Of a stretch of DNA of 64,000 nt, positions 19,666-55,357 are shown one piece after another. How positions within the stretch are numbered: the stretch's first letter is position 1; each line of letters begins with the position of its first letter. The notes below the pieces were generated by a model. It was not told the DNA's origin, made no database searches, and saw only the letters and a list, made by a program, of their open reading frames with translations. This DNA comes from Escherichia phage AV111. The DNA lies in the sequence record OR352941.1; one strand, given 5' to 3'. Both the position numbers and the translations under genes were made by a program.

Positions 19666-19694
19666 TTATACTCATCTCTCAAGAGTTTGTATAC
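19666..19694 (-). promoter_or_regulatory. early sigma70-like promoter (-35 TATACA / -10 TATAAT) inside an inverted repeat
   Basis: rc reads TATACAAACTCTTGAGAGATGAGTATAAT; near-identical copy at 49883..49910. Confidence 0.55.
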
Positions 19695-19933
19695 TATTTT
19701 TTAAGCATGAAAAGTAAGTAATTTGTATCACGTGGAGTAATATCAACACCCATATCAAAGATGCCTTTATAGATTGGGTATTTGTTTTCGGTTGTATCGA
19801 AGCTGAAACTATTTCCATCACAACTAACAGTAATAGCATCTGTTAAAATGTCATACTCAATCCTAACAATTGAATCCCCAATTTTAACGTCGAGGTGTTT
19901 TTTGAATTTGATAAAATCTAATTCTTGGGCCAT
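19694..19933 (-). CDS. hypothetical protein, 79 aa
   Basis: ORF track. Confidence 0.45.
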   Translation of the reverse strand: MAQELDFIKFKKHLDVKIGDSIVRIEYDILTDAITVSCDGNSFSFDTTENKYPIYKGIFDMGVDITPRDTNYLLFMLKK

Positions 19934-19996
19934 GATATTTTCCTCATTTTAAGACGATAGGAAGATAATAACATGTCTTCCTATCATTGTACATTA

Positions 19997-20197
19997 TTAA
20001 CCGAACTTTTTAGCGCCTTTCCAGCCTTCGTACATAACTGCACAAGTCAGTAGTACAGCTTGCTGGCATTCTTTGTATTTGTAAATCCAGAACCAGCGTA
20101 AGAAGTCTTCATCCTCAACGCCGTTGAGTTTCATATTGGCAAAGAATTCGGCACGTTCTTCACGAAGCTTTTGCGATAACATAGATTCAGGATTCAT
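19997..20197 (-). CDS. hypothetical protein, 66 aa
   Basis: ORF track. Confidence 0.4.
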   Translation of the reverse strand: MNPESMLSQKLREERAEFFANMKLNGVEDEDFLRWFWIYKYKECQQAVLLTCAVMYEGWKGAKKFG

Positions 20198-20331
20198 TTT
20201 GTGTTCCAGGCCCCATTTTCATCGATGAACTTAATCCAGTCATTTACAGACCATTTAGTTGTATCACCCTTTGGATTAACATTTAAAGTATATAATCCCT
20301 GCTTAAAAAGCATTCGTTTGATATTCATAAT
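20194..20331 (-). CDS. hypothetical protein (~45 aa from internal MNIKRMLF start with GAGGAAA RBS)
   Basis: ORF track 20194..20421 overlaps upstream ORF; internal Met abuts it. Confidence 0.35.
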   Translation of the reverse strand: MMNIKRMLFKQGLYTLNVNPKGDTTKWSVNDWIKFIDENGAWNTK

Positions 20332-20335
20332 TTCC

Positions 20336-20656
20336 TCAACTGTAACGATAACATTCGTTAGCTTTACGTTTGGCTTCAGTATGAGAAGTATTATAATCAT
20401 ACTCTTCTTTACTGTAAACATCTTTTTTCAACTTATGAACTTCTTTGCGGAGTTGTCGATTCATTTCATTCTTGACTTCAGAATCAACGCCTTTCATACG
20501 TTTCCATTTATCTGAGCGGAAAATGTTTTCAACCATGTCTTTGTGGCTAACACCGTCAGGAGCTTTACGCTTACCAAAATAGTCATAATCGCGAACTTTC
20601 AAATCTTTACGACGATACGTTTTACCCATAAGTACCTCAGAGGTTGATTGATACAA
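20336..20656 (-). CDS. hypothetical basic protein, 106 aa
   Basis: ORF track. Confidence 0.45.
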   Translation of the reverse strand: MYQSTSEVLMGKTYRRKDLKVRDYDYFGKRKAPDGVSHKDMVENIFRSDKWKRMKGVDSEVKNEMNRQLRKEVHKLKKDVYSKEEYDYNTSHTEAKRKANECYRYS

Positions 20657-20885
20657 CGCGTTTGATAAAATTCACTTCACTTACTGAAAGGTCTTTAAGA
20701 CCGATTGATTCTAAACGCTGAGTAAGCGTCAACATCGGGATATAATCCCAATGAGTTTTAGTTGCTTGATAAGTACGAACTCCATTAGCAATTTCAACGT
20801 TCAAATCGGAAATGGTAATGAATATCGGACGTTCGTTATTTACATTAAGAGATAGAACAACTTTCTTTGAATCTAAACTAATCAT
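20637..20885 (-). CDS. hypothetical protein, 82 aa
   Basis: ORF track. Confidence 0.4.
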   Translation of the reverse strand: MISLDSKKVVLSLNVNNERPIFITISDLNVEIANGVRTYQATKTHWDYIPMLTLTQRLESIGLKDLSVSEVNFIKRVVSINL

Positions 20886-21064
20886 GGCTTAATTTCCTTC
20901 GCAATTGAACAGAAGATACCACGGTCACAAAGCATTTCACCAATTTCTGGATATTTGATTGAACGGTACCAAACATCCAGGCTTGAAACTCTGGTTATCT
21001 GTACGGCATTACCATTGACAGAATAGTACTGGTCAACCTTAATTTCTTTATCTTCAATTGTCAT
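20882..21064 (-). CDS. hypothetical protein (~60 aa from internal MTIEDKEIKV start with GAGGAAAA RBS)
   Basis: ORF track 20882..21226; upstream part lacks coding character, internal Met has SD. Confidence 0.4.
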   Translation of the reverse strand: MTIEDKEIKVDQYYSVNGNAVQITRVSSLDVWYRSIKYPEIGEMLCDRGIFCSIAKEIKP

Positions 21065-21230
21065 TTTATTTTCCTCTATAGCAGATGGTTTAATCTTAAC
21101 ACATCTATTGAGGATGTAAACTGTTTTATGAAAATATTTTTTGATTTGAGAGGGGCACAAGGAGATAGTGAAGTGAAGATTCCAATGGATTATATTAGAA
21201 ATGAGATAAAGAAGACCAGGCGGCACCTGG

Positions 21231-21554
21231 TCAATCTTCTATGATATCAGAGTCATATCCTAATGAAATCAAGGACTTTTTAAACTCTGCAATATTCTTT
21301 TGTTTCTTATCATTTAAAAATATGACAGGATAACGAATATTAAGTGAAGTGAATCCTGCACGTTTAGCAAGAGATACGATTAAAGGACGGTCATATTCAA
21401 TCTTACCATTATTAGTGAGGACTTTATAAAATGTATAAGGAGCATTGAGCTCCTTTAAAAGTTTTGTAACAGTATAACATCCTGGACAACGTCCAACTTC
21501 TTCAGGGATGCCATAAATTTCAATCTTGTTCTTTAAGTTCGAGTTTTGTTCCAC
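21231..21554 (-). CDS. nrdH: NrdH-like glutaredoxin (CPGC redox motif); probable GTG start
   Basis: KIEIYGIPEEVGRCPGCYTV...; ATG-initiated ORF would overlap upstream gene by 160 nt, whereas in-frame GTG at 21552-21554 is preceded by AAGGA. Confidence 0.6.
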   Translation of the reverse strand: MEQNSNLKNKIEIYGIPEEVGRCPGCYTVTKLLKELNAPYTFYKVLTNNGKIEYDRPLIVSLAKRAGFTSLNIRYPVIFLNDKKQKNIAEFKKSLISLGYDSDIIED

Positions 21555-53625: not shown

Positions 53626-53629
53626 TTAC

Positions 53630-53920
53630 TCACCGTACCATATTAATGTAATTATATTCAATGCAACGTAATTTCAAAGGATTCTTGAAAATATCATATT
53701 CAAGAGGACCTTTTTCTGTTTCAATAAAGAAATCAAAGTTCACACTATTAAATTTGCGGTCTTCCCAAAGTAATTTAACCTGTGAAGATGAACGGTCGAC
53801 GTAAACCTTTTCAACTTCAAAGTGGGTCAAAATACCATAGTAATCGACTAGTGCTTTAGCTGCACGTTGATCGCTCTCATATCCGTTCTCGACAGATTTT
53901 ACTTTAGCATAAAGAATCAT
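53630..53920 (-). CDS. hypothetical protein, 96 aa
   Basis: ORF track. Confidence 0.5.
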   Translation of the reverse strand: MILYAKVKSVENGYESDQRAAKALVDYYGILTHFEVEKVYVDRSSSQVKLLWEDRKFNSVNFDFFIETEKGPLEYDIFKNPLKLRCIEYNYINMVR

Positions 53921-54288
53921 GAATGTTCCACCATTTCAAAGGTATGAGCATCAACAATATGATACCAGTCAAAATTTTCTTCCGCGTTTTTATAAATTTC
54001 GCGAAGAGCCTCAACAGTTTTTCCTGTAGCAACAAGGTCGTCAATACCACCAAGAGGATAACAGTCATAACCAGCAAACAGAAGGAAATTAATAGTTTCT
54101 GTAGGTTCTGGATGCAGTGTACCGTTGTCATCGACTACTTCAAAGAAAGTGTAAGAAGGAGTACAAGTTTTAATCCAAGCCCATGCTTGAGCTGCCGAAT
54201 CAAATGGTCTGCGTATTAAACGACAATCAGGGTCTTTAGAAGGATTTGCTTCAAAATCCGCATATACGTGATATTTCATTTTACTCAC
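53917..54288 (-). CDS. hypothetical protein, 123 aa
   Basis: ORF track. Confidence 0.5.
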   Translation of the reverse strand: MSKMKYHVYADFEANPSKDPDCRLIRRPFDSAAQAWAWIKTCTPSYTFFEVVDDNGTLHPEPTETINFLLFAGYDCYPLGGIDDLVATGKTVEALREIYKNAEENFDWYHIVDAHTFEMVEHS

Positions 54289-54488
54289 CTTTTTGCAATT
54301 TTATCCATAACGATAGCGATTAAACCGATTAGAAATGCTACTACCAATGAGATAGAATTTTCAGTTGTTGTCAGTAGTCCGCAAATGAATCCTACAAACA
54401 TCGAAAAACTAAAAGCCATTGAAGCAATTACTACAGCAACATTACGAATCAGTTCAGCGCGTTTCATTTTATTTCTCCATTTACTCAT
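54285..54488 (-). CDS. small membrane protein, 67 aa
   Basis: ORF track; hydrophobic. Confidence 0.5.
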   Translation of the reverse strand: MSKWRNKMKRAELIRNVAVVIASMAFSFSMFVGFICGLLTTTENSISLVVAFLIGLIAIVMDKIAKR

Positions 54489-54504
54489 TTGTTTTGATAG
54501 GACT

Positions 54505-54534
54505 ACTATAACATAATCCTATCAGCATGTAAAC
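54505..54534 (-). promoter_or_regulatory. early promoter copy (GTTTAC-18-TATAGT) in palindrome
   Basis: Repeat family; further related element with duplicated TGTAAACTGTTTTGTG at 54850..54905. Confidence 0.6.
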
Positions 54535-54537
54535 TAC

Positions 54538-54825
54538 TTACAGAAGAGTTTTTGCAATAATTTTAAGCTGAGCTACAGAAATATGCTTAGCTTTAAACAG
54601 TGCAGTCTCTTCAGCCGGAGAGATAACAATAGTAGCGCCGTCTTTCTTAGCAGACCATCCATCCCCTAAGTAAACAGTACCTTTTACTTCTTCGCCGTCA
54701 ACCAGACTAATCATTGGTTTACCCTCACGTCCTTTATTTGTTTTAATAACTTCGGAAGTAAGGGTTGCTTCGGTCAGAGTAGAAACGTTAGCATCAGGTG
54801 ATATAAATTCTTTATAGGTTTTCAT
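54538..54825 (-). CDS. internal head protein with capsid-targeting leader (MKTYKEFISP); ipI-like position next to 57B
   Basis: CTS-like N-terminus; location matches T4 ipI. Confidence 0.65.
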   Translation of the reverse strand: MKTYKEFISPDANVSTLTEATLTSEVIKTNKGREGKPMISLVDGEEVKGTVYLGDGWSAKKDGATIVISPAEETALFKAKHISVAQLKIIAKTLL

Positions 54826-54844
54826 TTTATTTCCTTGAGGTCGT

Positions 54845-55357
54845 TTATTTGATAGGATGATAGTAACACGCCATCATCCTTATGTAAACTGTTTTGTGTG
54901 TAAACTGTTTTGTGACGGCCCAATCTAGTTTTAAGGGTTCTTTGTATTCACGGTCGAGAATAACCGGAATAGCTACATCACCACTGAATGATAGTTGGCC
55001 AACGTTGTATGATAACGTTATATGTGGAGTGTAGTCGTCGAAATCATGAGTAGCACCTAAAGCTCGTGCATACTGATGACGACATCTAAGATATTCAGAA
55101 TCAAGAACTAAAACCAGTACAGCGCCGTCGTCAGTTTTCCATACCTCAAAGTGTCCTGATTCGGCAACAGAATAACTACCACTAGATGTAGTATATGGTA
55201 TGTTTACACGTGAATAACAAATTGTTGAATGAAGCTTTTCGCGTGGTACTGGATTAGGAATTCTTAATTTGCGCTGGAGGTCTTCCAGCGCATCAAGTGT
55301 TAATTCCGAAAATTTAGCTGCGACGTAGAGGCCTTGTGAAAAGTCCTCAAATTTCAT
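54845..55357 (-). CDS. 57B: 57B-like protein with 2H-phosphoesterase-type HxT/S motifs
   Basis: 170 aa directly downstream of 57A; paired LHSTICY and PHITLSY motifs. Confidence 0.6.

What the first reader, a model, noticed from the sequence alone, without database searches (positions are those of the whole stretch)
19666..54905. Many copies of a stem-loop-embedded early-promoter element, four of them near-identical
At least 15 intergenic sites on the minus strand carry a GTTTAC -35-like hexamer, a 16 to 18 nt spacer and a TATAAT/TATAGT/TACTAT -10, with the -10 sitting inside an inverted repeat. Four copies (35824, 45790, 47085, 54505) share the same ~35 nt (TTGATAGGACTACTATAACATAG(T/C)CCTAT); pairs at 29297/30314 and 19666/49883 are also near-identical. 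This matches the promoter-early stem-loop cassettes described in T4-type genomes, thought to mediate modular gene shuffling. Here they flank most of the unknown genes, marking these intervals as recently exchanged modules.
Basis: partly seen in the sequence, partly recalled or inferred. Interest (0 to 1): 0.45.

Follow-up and report, generated by a model that had tools for sequence, protein, structure and literature searches.

The report
T-even early promoter stem-loop cassettes
These repeats are the strong early promoters of an RB69-like relative of phage T4, each built into a small hairpin-forming cassette of an already described kind (PeSL); comparison with relatives shows the hairpins are under selection, and in some cassettes they should block translation of RNA that reads in from upstream.

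Summary
The window is a Mosigvirus (RB69-like T-even phage) segment running from gene 43 through nrdD, tk, regB, denV, e, tRNA and ipI to gene 5. GTTTAC-N15-19-TAYWRT occurs 15 times, all on the minus strand, against 0.66 expected. The four near-identical copies and both near-identical pairs are confirmed.

I count 21 cassettes. Each has an A-rich upstream region, GTTTAC, a 17-18 nt spacer, TGn, a TATAAT-like -10, CCTATCA at the start site, then a Shine-Dalgarno sequence and ATG. This is the T4 early-promoter signature. Many cassettes sit at positions orthologous to T4 promoter-like sites.

About 12 of the 21 carry a specific hairpin. Its 5' arm is the promoter spacer. Its 3' arm is either the -10/+1 region or the Shine-Dalgarno sequence. 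Own arms pair better than chimeric arms (p about 5e-5). Orthologues show compensatory changes. One-sided changes are mostly G.U on the sense strand, which points to an RNA structure in read-through transcripts.

In six cassettes, including regB and denV, the hairpin occludes the ribosome-binding site only in read-through RNA. This holds in 11 of 11 regB and 22 of 30 denV upstream variants from diverse phages.

Several indel junctions lie exactly in cassettes. Enrichment over other gene junctions is only about twofold and not significant.

Verdict: a known kind (PeSL / T4 early promoter). The shuffling claim is overstated. The anti-Shine-Dalgarno aspect is possibly under-described.

The parts
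54823..54889 (-). ipI cassette. -35 at 54884-54889, -10 TACTAT at 60-65. Hairpin AGGATGAT/ATCATCCT spans the -10. A second GTTTAC lies 16 nt upstream.
   Evidence: (z -3.4)
54465..54534 (-). F1 copy upstream of the tRNA.4 homologue. Hairpin GATAGGATTA/TAGTCCTATC, with the -10 TATAGT in the loop and 3' arm.
   Evidence: (z -4.3)
50738..50797 (-). Cassette whose spacer TTCTTCT pairs with the Shine-Dalgarno sequence AGAGGAA. An indel junction lies at 50752-50803.
50365..50427 (-). Cassette with an ATGTAC -35 variant and no specific hairpin.
50153..50214 (-). Cassette with ATTTAC / TATAGT and no hairpin.
49855..49928 (-). Cassette with hairpin GAGAGC/GCTCTC around TATAAT. Paralogue of the 19694 cassette.
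   Evidence: D10; z -2.8
47054..47114 (-). F1 copy. Hairpin GATAGGGCTA/TAGTCCTATC, containing one G.U pair.
   Evidence: (z -4.6)
45759..45819 (-). F1 copy. Its -35 hexamer is the junction where relatives carry an extra 66-aa ORF between two cassettes.
   Evidence: z -3.0
42734..42793 (-). denV cassette. Spacer TTCCTCCAAG pairs with CTTGGAGGAA, which contains the Shine-Dalgarno sequence.
   Evidence: (z -4.3)
41990..42052 (-). Cassette before an internal-protein-like gene, with no specific hairpin. The IP-leader repeat at 41970-41995 is a junction in all relatives.
   Evidence: (D9, D12)
39899..39958 (-). regB cassette. A 14-bp stem, TTCTCCTCTAGTTG/CAACTAGAGGAGAA, occludes the Shine-Dalgarno sequence. 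A replacement junction lies at 39962.
   Evidence: (z -4.4)
36247..36305 (-). Cassette with two helices: TTCTCCTC/GAGGAGAA (Shine-Dalgarno) and AGGTT/AACCT. Terminator copy D8 lies directly upstream.
   Evidence: (z -1.7)
35793..35853 (-). F1 copy upstream of the mobD.2 homologue. 13-bp hairpin.
   Evidence: (z -4.4)
33391..33460 (-). Cassette with GTGTAC / TATTAT and a weak hairpin. Relatives have 300-650 nt inserted just upstream, at 33453-33510.
33489..33543 (-). GTTTAC...TACTAT in the 3' end of the upstream ORF, followed by the stem-loop GGGCC TGAA GGCCC. Probably a remnant or half cassette.
31926..31984 (-). nrdC.8 cassette. Hairpin AGGTCTAT/ATAGACCT over the -10. The T4 orthologue instead pairs its spacer with the Shine-Dalgarno sequence.
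   Evidence: z -2.0
30285..30343 (-). Cassette with ATGTAC. A hairpin CAACCA/TGGTTG lies inside the spacer, and a second stem pairs the Shine-Dalgarno sequence.
   Evidence: (D5)
29266..29326 (-). Near-identical partner of the 30343 cassette, with the same spacer hairpin.
   Evidence: (D5)
28286..28346 (-). Promoter-like site overlapping the end of the nrdC.3 homologue. No hairpin.
21062..21121 (-). Cassette whose spacer ATCCTC..ATAGATG pairs with CATCT..GAGGA, which contains the Shine-Dalgarno sequence.
   Evidence: z -3.1
20390..20419 (-). A perfect GTTTAC-N18-TATAAT inside the 3' end of an ORF. Whether it is used is unknown.
19931..19994 (-). Cassette with ATGTAC. A 10-12 bp hairpin, GATAGGAAGA/TCTTCCTATC, lies over the -10 TATTAT.
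   Evidence: (z -2.8)
19625..19694 (-). Cassette with GTATAC / TATAAT. Hairpin GAGAGA/TCTCTC; the PTK orthologue has GAGAGC/GCTCTC.
   Evidence: (D10)
36309..36343 (-). Intrinsic terminator repeat, copy 1 (GCCCCTTCC..GGTTGGGGC followed by TTTTT).
   Evidence: (D8)
50823..50857 (-). Intrinsic terminator repeat, copy 2, directly upstream of the 50797 cassette.
   Evidence: (D8)
51367..51401 (-). Intrinsic terminator repeat, copy 3. Indel junction at 51368-51375.
   Evidence: (D8)

Best explanation
Each element is a compact intergenic regulatory cassette of a T-even phage. It contains a very strong host sigma-70 early promoter: an A-rich UP-like region, the -35 variant GTTTAC, a 17-18 nt spacer, an extended -10 (TGn + TAYWRT) and the start region CCTATCA. 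This fires immediately after infection and gives a short, unstructured, A-rich leader with an exposed Shine-Dalgarno sequence, often GGAG.

In about 12 of the 21 cassettes the promoter spacer is also the 5' arm of a hairpin. The inferred start site lies downstream of that arm. The hairpin can therefore form only in RNA that reads through from an upstream promoter.

In one class (regB, denV, 36305, 50797, 21121, 30343) the 3' arm is the Shine-Dalgarno sequence. Read-through RNA is then translationally silent for that gene and only promoter-own RNA is translated. This is the logic known for the T4 late genes e and 49, here applied to early promoters. It would confine expression to the brief life of the early promoter.

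In the other class (the four near-identical copies, ipI, nrdC.8, 19994, 19694/49928) the 3' arm is the -10/+1 region and the Shine-Dalgarno sequence stays free. There the hairpin most likely acts as an attenuator or as a 3'-end/processing barrier for the upstream message.

Because the cassettes are repeated, they also serve now and then as patches of homology for deletion, insertion or replacement of the genes between them.

Shown: motif enrichment, hairpin specificity, covariation, predicted differential Shine-Dalgarno accessibility, and junction positions. Inferred: promoter activity, start sites, RNA folding in vivo, and the effects on translation and RNA stability.
For: Promoter identity:
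- 15 strict hits, all on the coding strand, against 0.66 expected.
- The consensus of the 21 cassettes is aAA..gTTTAC..17-18..TGt-TATaAT-a.aCcTATCaa. TG sits at -15/-14 in 17 of 21. The upstream A fraction is 0.42 against 0.33 for the window.
- This fits the published description of T4 early promoters as UP/-35/TGn/-10 promoters with additional regions of consensus (PMC2988021), and the early -10 motif TGTG(A/G)TA(C/T)(A/T)AT reported from dRNA-seq of T4 (bioRxiv 10.1101/2024.04.04.588121).
- T4 has the same promoter-like motif upstream of the homologous genes regB, denV, ipI, tRNA.4, nrdC.8 and the mobD.2 homologue.

Hairpin is real:
- z-scores run from -1.7 to -4.6 for 12 cassettes, and 10 of them are at or below -2.8.
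- Each cassette's own 5' and 3' halves fold better than chimeras between cassettes: mean -11.8 against -8.1 kcal/mol, p=5e-5, using one representative per family.

Selection:
- The regB stem has changes on both sides at 6 of 14 pairs across phage lineages. The covariation score is 0.374 against 0.143 for shuffles (0 of 500 reach it) and at most 0.062 for slid registers.
- The F1/mobD.2 stem has double changes at 4 of 12 pairs, including an A-U / G.U / G-C series at one position.
- The 19694 stem is GAGAGA/TCTCTC in the window and GAGAGC/GCTCTC in PTK.

RNA rather than DNA:
- In the F1/mobD.2 alignment, one-sided changes give 9 G.U cells and 2 unpaired cells in the 10-bp core.
- Across all helices, G.T: A.C is 17:3 for mismatches flanked by at least 2 Watson-Crick pairs.
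- Sense folds are more stable than antisense folds: T4 p=0.015, window p=0.057.

Shine-Dalgarno gating:
- In 6 of 21 cassettes the predicted unpaired probability of the Shine-Dalgarno sequence is at most 0.02 in the read-through context and 0.25-0.71 in the own transcript. Over all cassettes it is 0.29 against 0.52, Wilcoxon p=0.014.
- The same script recovers the known e and 49 late-promoter hairpins in this window as positive controls (PMC3014915).
- 11 of 11 distinct regB upstream contexts and 22 of 30 distinct denV upstream contexts from IMG/VR phages keep the Shine-Dalgarno sequence below 0.05 unpaired in read-through RNA, and 0.2-0.7 in own RNA, using different stem sequences and even different arm positions.

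Recombination:
- Junctions lie at 45813-45819 (the -35 hexamer), 36316-36344 (terminator repeat), 33389-33510, 39962, 50752-50803, 51368-51375 and 54803-54857. Extra ORFs in relatives are bracketed by two cassette or terminator copies.
Against: - No transcription start, RNA structure or translation data exist for this phage. The T4 dRNA-seq start-site table could not be read.
- Start sites are assumed to lie 7 nt after the -10.
- Shine-Dalgarno accessibility of cassette genes as a class does not differ significantly from that of genes without a cassette: 0.29 against 0.39, p=0.12; 6/21 against 9/56 below 0.05, p=0.33. Gating therefore applies to a subset only.
- The G.T: A.C excess is not significant when all helix positions are counted (21:14, p=0.31). 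The 17:3 count used a flank criterion chosen after seeing the data, and orthologues are not independent.
- The regB alignment was put in register by hand, with the loop replaced.
- For the -10/+1 class no function is demonstrated. These hairpins have no T-run, so they are not canonical intrinsic terminators.
- Breakpoint enrichment at cassettes is weak.
Confidence: 0.75

Rival explanations
1. The stem-loops are purely transcription terminators or attenuators that insulate each early unit from upstream read-through. This is the original PeSL reading. They have no role in translation.
For: In phi1/RB49 one PeSL stem-loop placed between a promoter and lacZ reduced expression as strongly as rrnB T1 (PMC2839356). 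The -10/+1 class here leaves the Shine-Dalgarno sequence free, so attenuation or RNA-end protection is the simplest role for that class.
Against: None of the promoter-embedded hairpins is followed by a T-run. The scans report as terminator-like only other sites, including one of the three D8 repeat copies (51381-51396). The stems are A/U-rich (-12 to -22 kcal/mol), unlike the polyG/polyC stems tested in phi1. A reporter placed downstream of a Shine-Dalgarno-occluding hairpin would also drop, so that assay does not separate termination from translation. In regB and denV the 3' arm follows the Shine-Dalgarno sequence in every lineage even though the 5' arm moves. A terminator would not need that.
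Confidence: 0.3
2. The inverted repeats act in DNA. They extrude as cruciforms in the promoter, either to tune promoter opening or to attract endonuclease VII and so create recombination hot spots. This would be the mechanism of cassette shuffling.
For: The repeats are perfect or near-perfect palindromic arms of 8-15 bp in A+T-rich DNA. Some indel junctions lie in or next to them. [quoted passage not shown]
Against: One-sided substitutions are mostly G.U on the sense strand. These would be A.C mismatches on the other strand of a cruciform: 9 against 1-2, and 17:3. Sense folds are more stable than antisense folds. Arms 20-35 nt apart that reach the Shine-Dalgarno sequence make poor cruciforms. 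Most junctions are at the -35, at the terminator repeat or at the IP-leader repeat, not in the stems.
Confidence: 0.08
3. The palindromes are operators for a dimeric phage protein that shuts off early promoters a few minutes after infection. The mechanism of that shut-off is still unknown.
For: The shut-off of T4 early promoters is unexplained by AsiA, ModA or Alt (PMC2988021; PMC3014915). The palindromes overlap the -10, where a repressor would act. Several share GATAGG...CCTATC.
Against: The arms differ completely between cassettes and between orthologues while staying complementary. That is the signature of a nucleic-acid helix, not of a shared protein-binding site. Loop lengths and registers vary. 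About 40% of the cassettes have no palindrome.
Confidence: 0.04
4. The hairpins are a by-product. The promoter consensus (a pyrimidine-rich spacer after the -35, CCTATC at +1) happens to be complementary to Shine-Dalgarno-like or spacer sequences, and the near-identical copies are simply recent duplications.
For: TTCTCCTC after the -35 recurs in several cassettes and is the complement of GAGGAGAA. CCTATC is part of the promoter consensus. The four F1 copies clearly share ancestry.
Against: Chimeras that keep the consensus fold about 3.7 kcal/mol worse than native pairs. The non-consensus inner parts of the stems covary. Slid registers lose the pairing: 89% falls to 45-55%, and 92% falls to 27-61%.
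Confidence: 0.05

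Closest known systems
PeSLs (promoter-early stem-loops) of T4-type phages: phi1/RB49 (Arbiol et al. 2010, PMC2839356); PST/T4 and nt-1/KVP40 (Comeau et al. 2014, PMC4122927)
   Same: Same layout: an AT-rich upstream region, sigma-70-type -35/-10 boxes, a stem-loop between the boxes or over the -10, then a Shine-Dalgarno sequence and ATG. The cassettes are repeated upstream of small, unrelated, mostly uncharacterised genes. 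G.T pairs occur in the stems. Some indels between close relatives are bracketed by two copies. The PST/T4 promoter consensus TTTACW-N17-TAYWAT and the stem type AGNA-loop-TCNT fit the AGGA/TCCT stems seen here.
   Different: These cassettes are in a Mosigvirus, a group those two papers do not cover. The stems are A/U-rich and lack a T-run, unlike the polyG/polyC stem tested as a terminator. The papers do not discuss translation: the word 'translation' does not occur in the 2010 main text. Here a subset pairs the spacer with the Shine-Dalgarno sequence. Association with indels is weaker than those papers suggest.
T4 early promoters (Pe), as reviewed by Hinton 2010 (PMC2988021). Primary compilations by Liebig & Ruger 1989 and Miller et al. 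2003 are cited from my own knowledge and could not be read here.
   Same: The GTTTAC -35 variant, the TGn extended -10, the A-rich UP region and conserved positions around +1. The sites are orthologous to T4 promoter-like sites before regB, denV, ipI, tRNA.4 and nrdC.8.
   Different: None in kind. Sequence details differ: TATAGT or TACTAT -10 variants, and ATGTAC -35 variants.
Promoter-inside-hairpin translational control of T4 genes e, 49, soc and I-TevI (reviewed by Uzan & Miller 2010, PMC3014915)
   Same: The Shine-Dalgarno sequence (and sometimes the AUG) is paired in transcripts from upstream. A promoter lying within or after the 5' arm gives transcripts that lack that arm and are translatable. 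The e and 49 examples are present in this window and behave the same way in my calculation.
   Different: The known cases use late promoters (TATAAATA) to delay expression. Here the embedded promoter is an early sigma-70 promoter, which would restrict expression to the immediate-early burst. None of the early cases has been tested.
Shuffling at the internal-protein (IP) locus of T-even phages (Repoila et al. 1994, as cited in PMC4122927)
   Same: IP-like genes here (41663-42316, 54538-54825) are preceded by cassettes and share a leader repeat (D9/D12). Relatives differ by whole IP genes inserted at these repeats.
   Different: At these sites the junction homology is mainly the conserved coding leader (MKTYQEFI...) rather than the promoter hairpin.

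Membership tests
PeSL (promoter-early stem-loop cassette) | A sigma-70-like -35 and -10 about 17 nt apart, on the coding strand, in front of a gene | tested here: met
   15 strict hits against 0.66 expected, all on the minus strand. 21 cassettes with a downstream Shine-Dalgarno sequence and ATG.
PeSL (promoter-early stem-loop cassette) | [quoted passage not shown] | tested here: met
   A+T is 0.72 and A is 0.42 in the 20 nt upstream, against 0.63 and 0.33 for the strand as a whole.
PeSL (promoter-early stem-loop cassette) | A stable stem-loop within or next to the promoter (five positional classes; most often between the boxes or over the -10) | tested here: met
   About 12 of 21 have a specific hairpin over the -10 or reaching the Shine-Dalgarno sequence. 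Two have one inside the spacer. Three have an upstream terminator. About 5-6 cassettes have none.
PeSL (promoter-early stem-loop cassette) | The stem-loop acts as a transcription terminator or attenuator | tested here: inconclusive
   No T-run follows the embedded hairpins, and none is called terminator-like. Function cannot be tested in silico.
PeSL (promoter-early stem-loop cassette) | Preferentially associated with indels or replacements between close relatives | tested here: inconclusive
   9-10 of 21-22 cassette junctions carry a breakpoint, against 17-18 of 63-64 other junctions. The odds ratio is about 2 and the difference is not significant. Individual junctions are exact.
PeSL (promoter-early stem-loop cassette) | Recombination between neighbouring copies gives mini-circles | not testable with these tools
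   Needs inverse PCR on infected cells or virions.
T4-type early promoter (Pe) | The GTTTAC-type -35, the TGn extended -10, a UP-like A tract and a conserved +1 region | tested here: met
   Consensus. TG at -15/-14 in 17 of 21 cassettes. CcTATCa lies after the -10.
T4-type early promoter (Pe) | Orthology to promoter positions in T4 | tested here: met
   The same motif lies upstream of the homologous N-termini in T4 for regB, denV, ipI, tRNA.4, nrdC.8 and the mobD.2 homologue. I could not retrieve T4's experimental promoter list: the GenBank records carry no promoter features.
T4-type early promoter (Pe) | Initiation by unmodified host RNA polymerase immediately after infection | not testable with these tools
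   Needs 5' end mapping or in vitro transcription.
Promoter-in-hairpin translational gate (T4 e/49/soc/I-TevI type) | The Shine-Dalgarno sequence and/or AUG is paired in transcripts from upstream | tested here: met
   Predicted unpaired probability at most 0.02 for 6 cassettes. 11 of 11 regB and 22 of 30 denV variants are below 0.05. This is prediction only.
Promoter-in-hairpin translational gate (T4 e/49/soc/I-TevI type) | The promoter-own transcript starts 3' of the 5' arm | tested here: met
   This follows from geometry: the 5' arm is the spacer or the -10. The start site is assumed to lie 7 nt after the -10. Start sites were not measured.
Promoter-in-hairpin translational gate (T4 e/49/soc/I-TevI type) | The embedded promoter is a late promoter (TATAAATA) that delays expression | tested here: not met
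   The embedded promoters are of the early sigma-70 type. The cassettes work like this family but are not members of the described set.

The most novel reading that the evidence does not exclude
In T-even phages a conserved subset of early promoters carries an anti-Shine-Dalgarno sequence in its own spacer or -10 region. The downstream gene (regB, denV and several small ORFs) would then be translated only from RNA started at that promoter and never from read-through RNA. This would be a general 'immediate-early only' translational gate, the mirror image of the late-promoter gates of e and 49. Neither the PeSL papers nor the T4 post-transcriptional review that I could read describes it.
Probability: 0.45. 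Interest if true: 0.55.

Novelty: new member of a known kind. Interest (0 to 1): 0.33.

Why it matters
T4-type early promoters and their stem-loop cassettes (PeSLs) are published, and this window shows the Mosigvirus versions of them.

Two things add some value. First, the comparative data give real covariation support for the hairpins and point to RNA rather than DNA. The PeSL papers argued for the structures mainly from their predicted stability and from assays on a few cloned elements. Second, the subset that pairs the promoter spacer with the ribosome-binding site is conserved through complete turnover of stem sequence in regB and denV. This suggests a simple, testable rule for why some early genes are expressed only in the first minutes, and it bears on the tight control of the RegB nuclease.

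The analysis also tempers the idea that these cassettes are the main drivers of gene shuffling. In these genomes they account for a minority of the indel junctions.

Tried and rejected
- Generic sigma-70 scan: not enriched over shuffles, so it is useless here.
- Rfam at gathering threshold: only three tRNAs, and no family matches the cassettes.
- Promoter annotation in the T4 records NC_000866 and AF158101: none is present.
- Miller et al. 2003 (PMC150520): not held.
- T4 dRNA-seq start-site table: the supplement held as text does not contain it.
- IMG/VR scan for the F1-type pattern with free arms: only 5 stretches on 3 contigs, too few for covariation.
- MAFFT alignment of whole regB leaders: not in structural register because the Shine-Dalgarno sequence shifts. 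I replaced it with hand-registered arms.
- Strand-asymmetry tests: weak when all positions or pairs are counted. GU fraction is 10.3% against 8.4%, and G.T: A.C is 21:14.
- Class-level Shine-Dalgarno accessibility, cassette genes against other genes: not significant.
- Breakpoint enrichment at cassette junctions: not significant.
- Explanations considered and rejected: a protein operator, a DNA cruciform, and a by-product of the promoter consensus (see the rival explanations).

Full report
**Context.** The window is 95-97% identical over long stretches to many Escherichia and Shigella phages of the genus Mosigvirus (the RB69/JS09 group; Straboviridae, Tevenvirinae). It runs from DNA polymerase (gene 43) through nrdD, 49, nrdC and its satellites, tk, vs, regB, denV, e, a small tRNA cluster, ipI and genes 1, 3, 2 and 4. 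All of these are on the minus strand. It then continues to genes 53 and 5 on the plus strand. The finding covers the long block of prereplicative and accessory genes.

**Observation.**
- GTTTAC-N15-19-TAYWRT occurs 15 times, all on the minus (coding) strand, against 0.66 expected.
- The four copies are alike for about 55-63 nt, from just before the -35 to the Shine-Dalgarno sequence, and unrelated outside that stretch.
- The two near-identical pairs are 86% identical over 43 nt and 90% over 62 nt.
- Allowing the -35 variants ATGTAC, ATTTAC and GTATAC and requiring a Shine-Dalgarno sequence and ATG downstream, I count 21 cassettes.
- Their consensus is aAA..gTTTAC, 17-18 nt, TGt-TATaAT, a.aCcTATCaa. 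TG sits at -15/-14 in 17 of 21, and the upstream tract is A-rich.
- A generic TTGACA/TATAAT scan is not enriched. The signal lies entirely in the T4-specific form.

**What they are.**
- The consensus matches T4 early promoters as described in the literature: 'uber' UP/-35/TGn/-10 promoters with additional conserved regions (PMC2988021), and an early -10 motif TGTG(A/G)TA(C/T)(A/T)AT.
- Running the same scan on T4 itself finds the motif upstream of the homologous genes regB, denV, ipI, tRNA.4, nrdC.8 and the mobD.2 homologue.
- Promoter activity and start sites are therefore inferred by homology and consensus, not shown. The T4 GenBank records carry no promoter features, and the one start-site table I located could not be read.

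**The hairpins.**
- Folding each cassette from the -35 to the ATG gives a dominant helix in about 12 of 21. For the twelve cassettes tested, z-scores against dinucleotide shuffles run from -1.7 to -4.6, and ten are at or below -2.8.
- The 5' arm always lies in the promoter spacer, just after the -35.
- The 3' arm takes one of two forms. In the first it is the end of the -10 plus the start region (TAGTCCTATC in the four near-identical copies; also ipI, nrdC.8, 19994, and 19694/49928). In the second it is the Shine-Dalgarno region. Examples are regB with 14 bp (TTCTCCTCTAGTTG/CAACTAGAGGAGAA), denV with 10 bp (TTCCTCCAAG/CTTGGAGGAA), and the 36305, 50797 and 21121 cassettes. The 30343 cassette has a stem that starts just after the -10.
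Native 5' and 3' halves fold better than halves taken from different cassettes: mean -11.8 against -8.1 kcal/mol, one representative per paralogue family, p=5e-5.
- About five or six cassettes have no specific hairpin. Two have a small hairpin entirely within the spacer.

**Comparative evidence.** I compared orthologous cassettes in six Mosigvirus genomes, T4 and a second Tequatrovirus.
- Stems are kept while their sequences change.
- The 35853 stem shows A-U, G.U and G-C at one position in different phages. It is replaced in T4 by a different 14-15 bp stem in the same register.
- The 19694 stem is GAGAGA/TCTCTC in the window and GAGAGC/GCTCTC in PTK.
- The ipI, tRNA.4, denV and regB stems differ between T4 and Mosigvirus but persist.
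- The nrdC.8 cassette pairs the spacer with the -10/+1 region in Mosigvirus and with the Shine-Dalgarno sequence in T4.
- On an ungapped alignment of 13 F1/mobD.2-type sequences, 4 of 12 pairs change on both sides and 92% of cells pair, against 27-61% in slid registers.
- For regB I fetched 16 loci from IMG/VR at 40-98% protein identity. In the lineages that have a recognisable GTTTAC promoter, the spacer pairs with the Shine-Dalgarno region through different inner sequences: CTAGTTG/CAACTAG, CTTGACTG/CAGTTAAG, CTTTATG/CATAAAG and TGTAAG/CTTACA.
- On hand-registered regB arms, 6 of 14 pairs change on both sides. The covariation score is 0.374, against 0.143 for shuffles (0 of 500 reach it) and at most 0.062 for slid registers.
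- The hand registration and the small, related sample are caveats.

**RNA or DNA?**
- In a DNA cruciform, G.T and A.C mismatches should be equally tolerated. In sense-strand RNA only G.U is.
- In the F1/mobD.2 alignment, one-sided changes give nine G.U cells against two unpaired cells in the ten core pairs.
- Over all unique helices the count is 21:14, which is not significant. It becomes 17:3 for mismatches flanked by at least two Watson-Crick pairs, a criterion I chose after seeing the data.
- Sense strands fold better than antisense strands: T4 p=0.015, window p=0.057.
- I read this as favouring an RNA structure in sense transcripts, without proof.
- With the start site about 7 nt after the -10, the promoter's own transcript lacks the 5' arm. 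The hairpin can therefore exist only in RNA that reads through from upstream.

**Consequence for translation.**
- I computed the probability that the Shine-Dalgarno core is unpaired in two contexts: a read-through context (-85 to +30) and the promoter-own transcript.
- Six cassettes go from at most 0.02 to 0.25-0.71. Over all 21 the means are 0.29 and 0.52 (p=0.014).
- The same script flags the start regions of gene e and gene 49 in this window. In both, a late promoter TATAAATA sits in the 5' arm. These are the textbook cases (PMC3014915) and serve as positive controls. It also flags a homing-endonuclease-like ORF in the tRNA cluster.
- As a class, cassette genes are not significantly less accessible than genes without a cassette (p=0.12). 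The gate therefore applies to a subset.
- That subset is strongly conserved. 11 of 11 distinct regB contexts and 22 of 30 distinct denV contexts from diverse T4-like phages have the Shine-Dalgarno sequence below 0.05 unpaired in read-through RNA and 0.2-0.7 in own RNA.
- In some denV lineages the 5' arm has moved from the spacer to the -10/discriminator region. It is still upstream of the inferred start.
- Inference: these genes are translated only from their own early promoter. Combined with early-promoter shut-off and RegB cleavage of exposed GGAG sites (established knowledge), this would confine their synthesis to the first minutes.

**The -10/+1 class,** including the four near-identical copies, leaves the Shine-Dalgarno sequence free. 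None has a T-run, so they are not canonical intrinsic terminators. Canonical terminators do exist nearby as a separate three-copy repeat (D8). My best guess, with low confidence, is an attenuator or a 3'-end/processing barrier for the upstream message. This is close to what Arbiol et al. proposed.

**Shuffling.**
- Against six relatives, several junctions fall inside cassettes.
- At 45813-45819, which is the -35 hexamer, two relatives carry an extra 66-aa ORF between two cassettes and the window has a hybrid cassette.
- At 36316-36344, phage PTK carries an extra 185-aa ORF between two terminator copies.
- Further junctions lie at 33389-33510, 39962, 50752-50803, 51368-51375 and 54803-54857.
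- Taking gene junctions as the unit, cassette junctions are hit about twice as often as the others: 9/21 against 18/64 as computed, or about 10/22 against 17/63 after correcting one misclassified junction. The difference is not significant (p=0.28 as run).
- Other differences are NUMOD3 homing-endonuclease-like insertions (24392-25257; 52153-52955) or lie at plain gene boundaries.
- About 21-23 cassettes serve about 85 genes, and many cassette-led genes are conserved in place as far as T4.
- So the cassettes are occasional recombination substrates. They are not markers of recent exchange for 'most unknown genes'.

**Comparison and novelty.**
- The cassettes meet the structural definition of PeSLs and of T4 early promoters. 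The functional features of PeSLs (terminator activity, mini-circles) could not be tested.
- The cassettes work like the e/49 promoter-in-hairpin gates but fail that family's late-promoter feature.
- I therefore file the finding as a new member of a known kind.
- The anti-Shine-Dalgarno reading is absent from the PeSL papers. The word 'translation' does not occur in the 2010 main text. The 2010 review of T4 post-transcriptional control lists only late-promoter cases.
- Much of the older T4 literature is outside the searchable library, so I cannot claim priority for that reading.

Noticed in passing
window 24392-25257 (ORF 24441..25262, minus strand): A window-specific insertion between nrdD and gene 49. 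It encodes a 273-aa protein with a NUMOD3 motif, so it looks like a free-standing homing endonuclease. It is absent from the five relatives that cover this region.
   Followed up: partly
window 52077-53030: Relatives have tRNA-Arg and tRNA-Met 6 nt apart. Here a 221-aa ORF (52138..52803, weak NUMOD3/DUF559 matches) plus a tRNA-Asn (52878-52949) lies between them. The ORF's end overlaps tRNA-Arg. Its Shine-Dalgarno sequence sits in a hairpin (CTCCTATA/TATAGGAG) just after a late-promoter-like TAAATA. The arrangement resembles T4 segB.
   Followed up: partly
window about 43561-43610 (gene e start) and about 25732-25785 (gene 49 start): The classical late-promoter-in-hairpin translational gates of lysozyme and endonuclease VII are present. 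Their Shine-Dalgarno sequences are predicted to be fully paired in long transcripts. I used them as positive controls.
   Followed up: yes
window 36309-36343, 50823-50857, 51367-51401: A three-copy repeat of a canonical intrinsic terminator (GCCCCTTCC..GGTTGGGGC followed by TTTTT). Two copies sit directly upstream of an early-promoter cassette. In phage PTK an extra 185-aa ORF lies between two copies.
   Followed up: partly
window 27050-27331: A 98-aa ORF with no Pfam match that is present here and in some relatives but absent from RB69 and mar005P1. The flanks share about 34 nt of direct repeat, which suggests deletion or insertion by short homology unrelated to promoters.
   Followed up: no
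window about 18740-18800: A MotA-box-like TGCTTTAAG followed by TATAAT, with a hairpin ATAGGTCT/AGACCTAT around the -10, upstream of the ATG at 18732. This looks like a middle-promoter counterpart of the cassettes (a 'PmSL').
   Followed up: no
window 54884-54911: A tandem duplication of the -35 region (AAAACAGTTTACACACAAAACAGTTTAC) before ipI. It is the kind of slippage product described for degraded PeSLs.
   Followed up: no
window 41970-41995, 42294-42319, 54803-54828: A repeated coding leader of internal-protein-like genes (MKTYQEFI...). It is the junction at which all relatives differ by whole IP genes, so recombination there uses coding homology as much as promoter homology.
   Followed up: partly
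loci L052-L054 and L058 (IMG/VR contigs of 345-378 kb), about 75 nt upstream of denV: In these jumbo phages the -35 TTGAC lies inside a G+C-rich hairpin that is followed by a T-run and then TATAAT. This is a terminator/promoter composite of a different design, and the Shine-Dalgarno sequence is not occluded.
   Followed up: no
window 48002-47973: A promoter-like ATTTAC-N18-TATAAT inside ORF 47910..48269. Its -35 coincides with a breakpoint (48001) against phage LF82-3.
   Followed up: no
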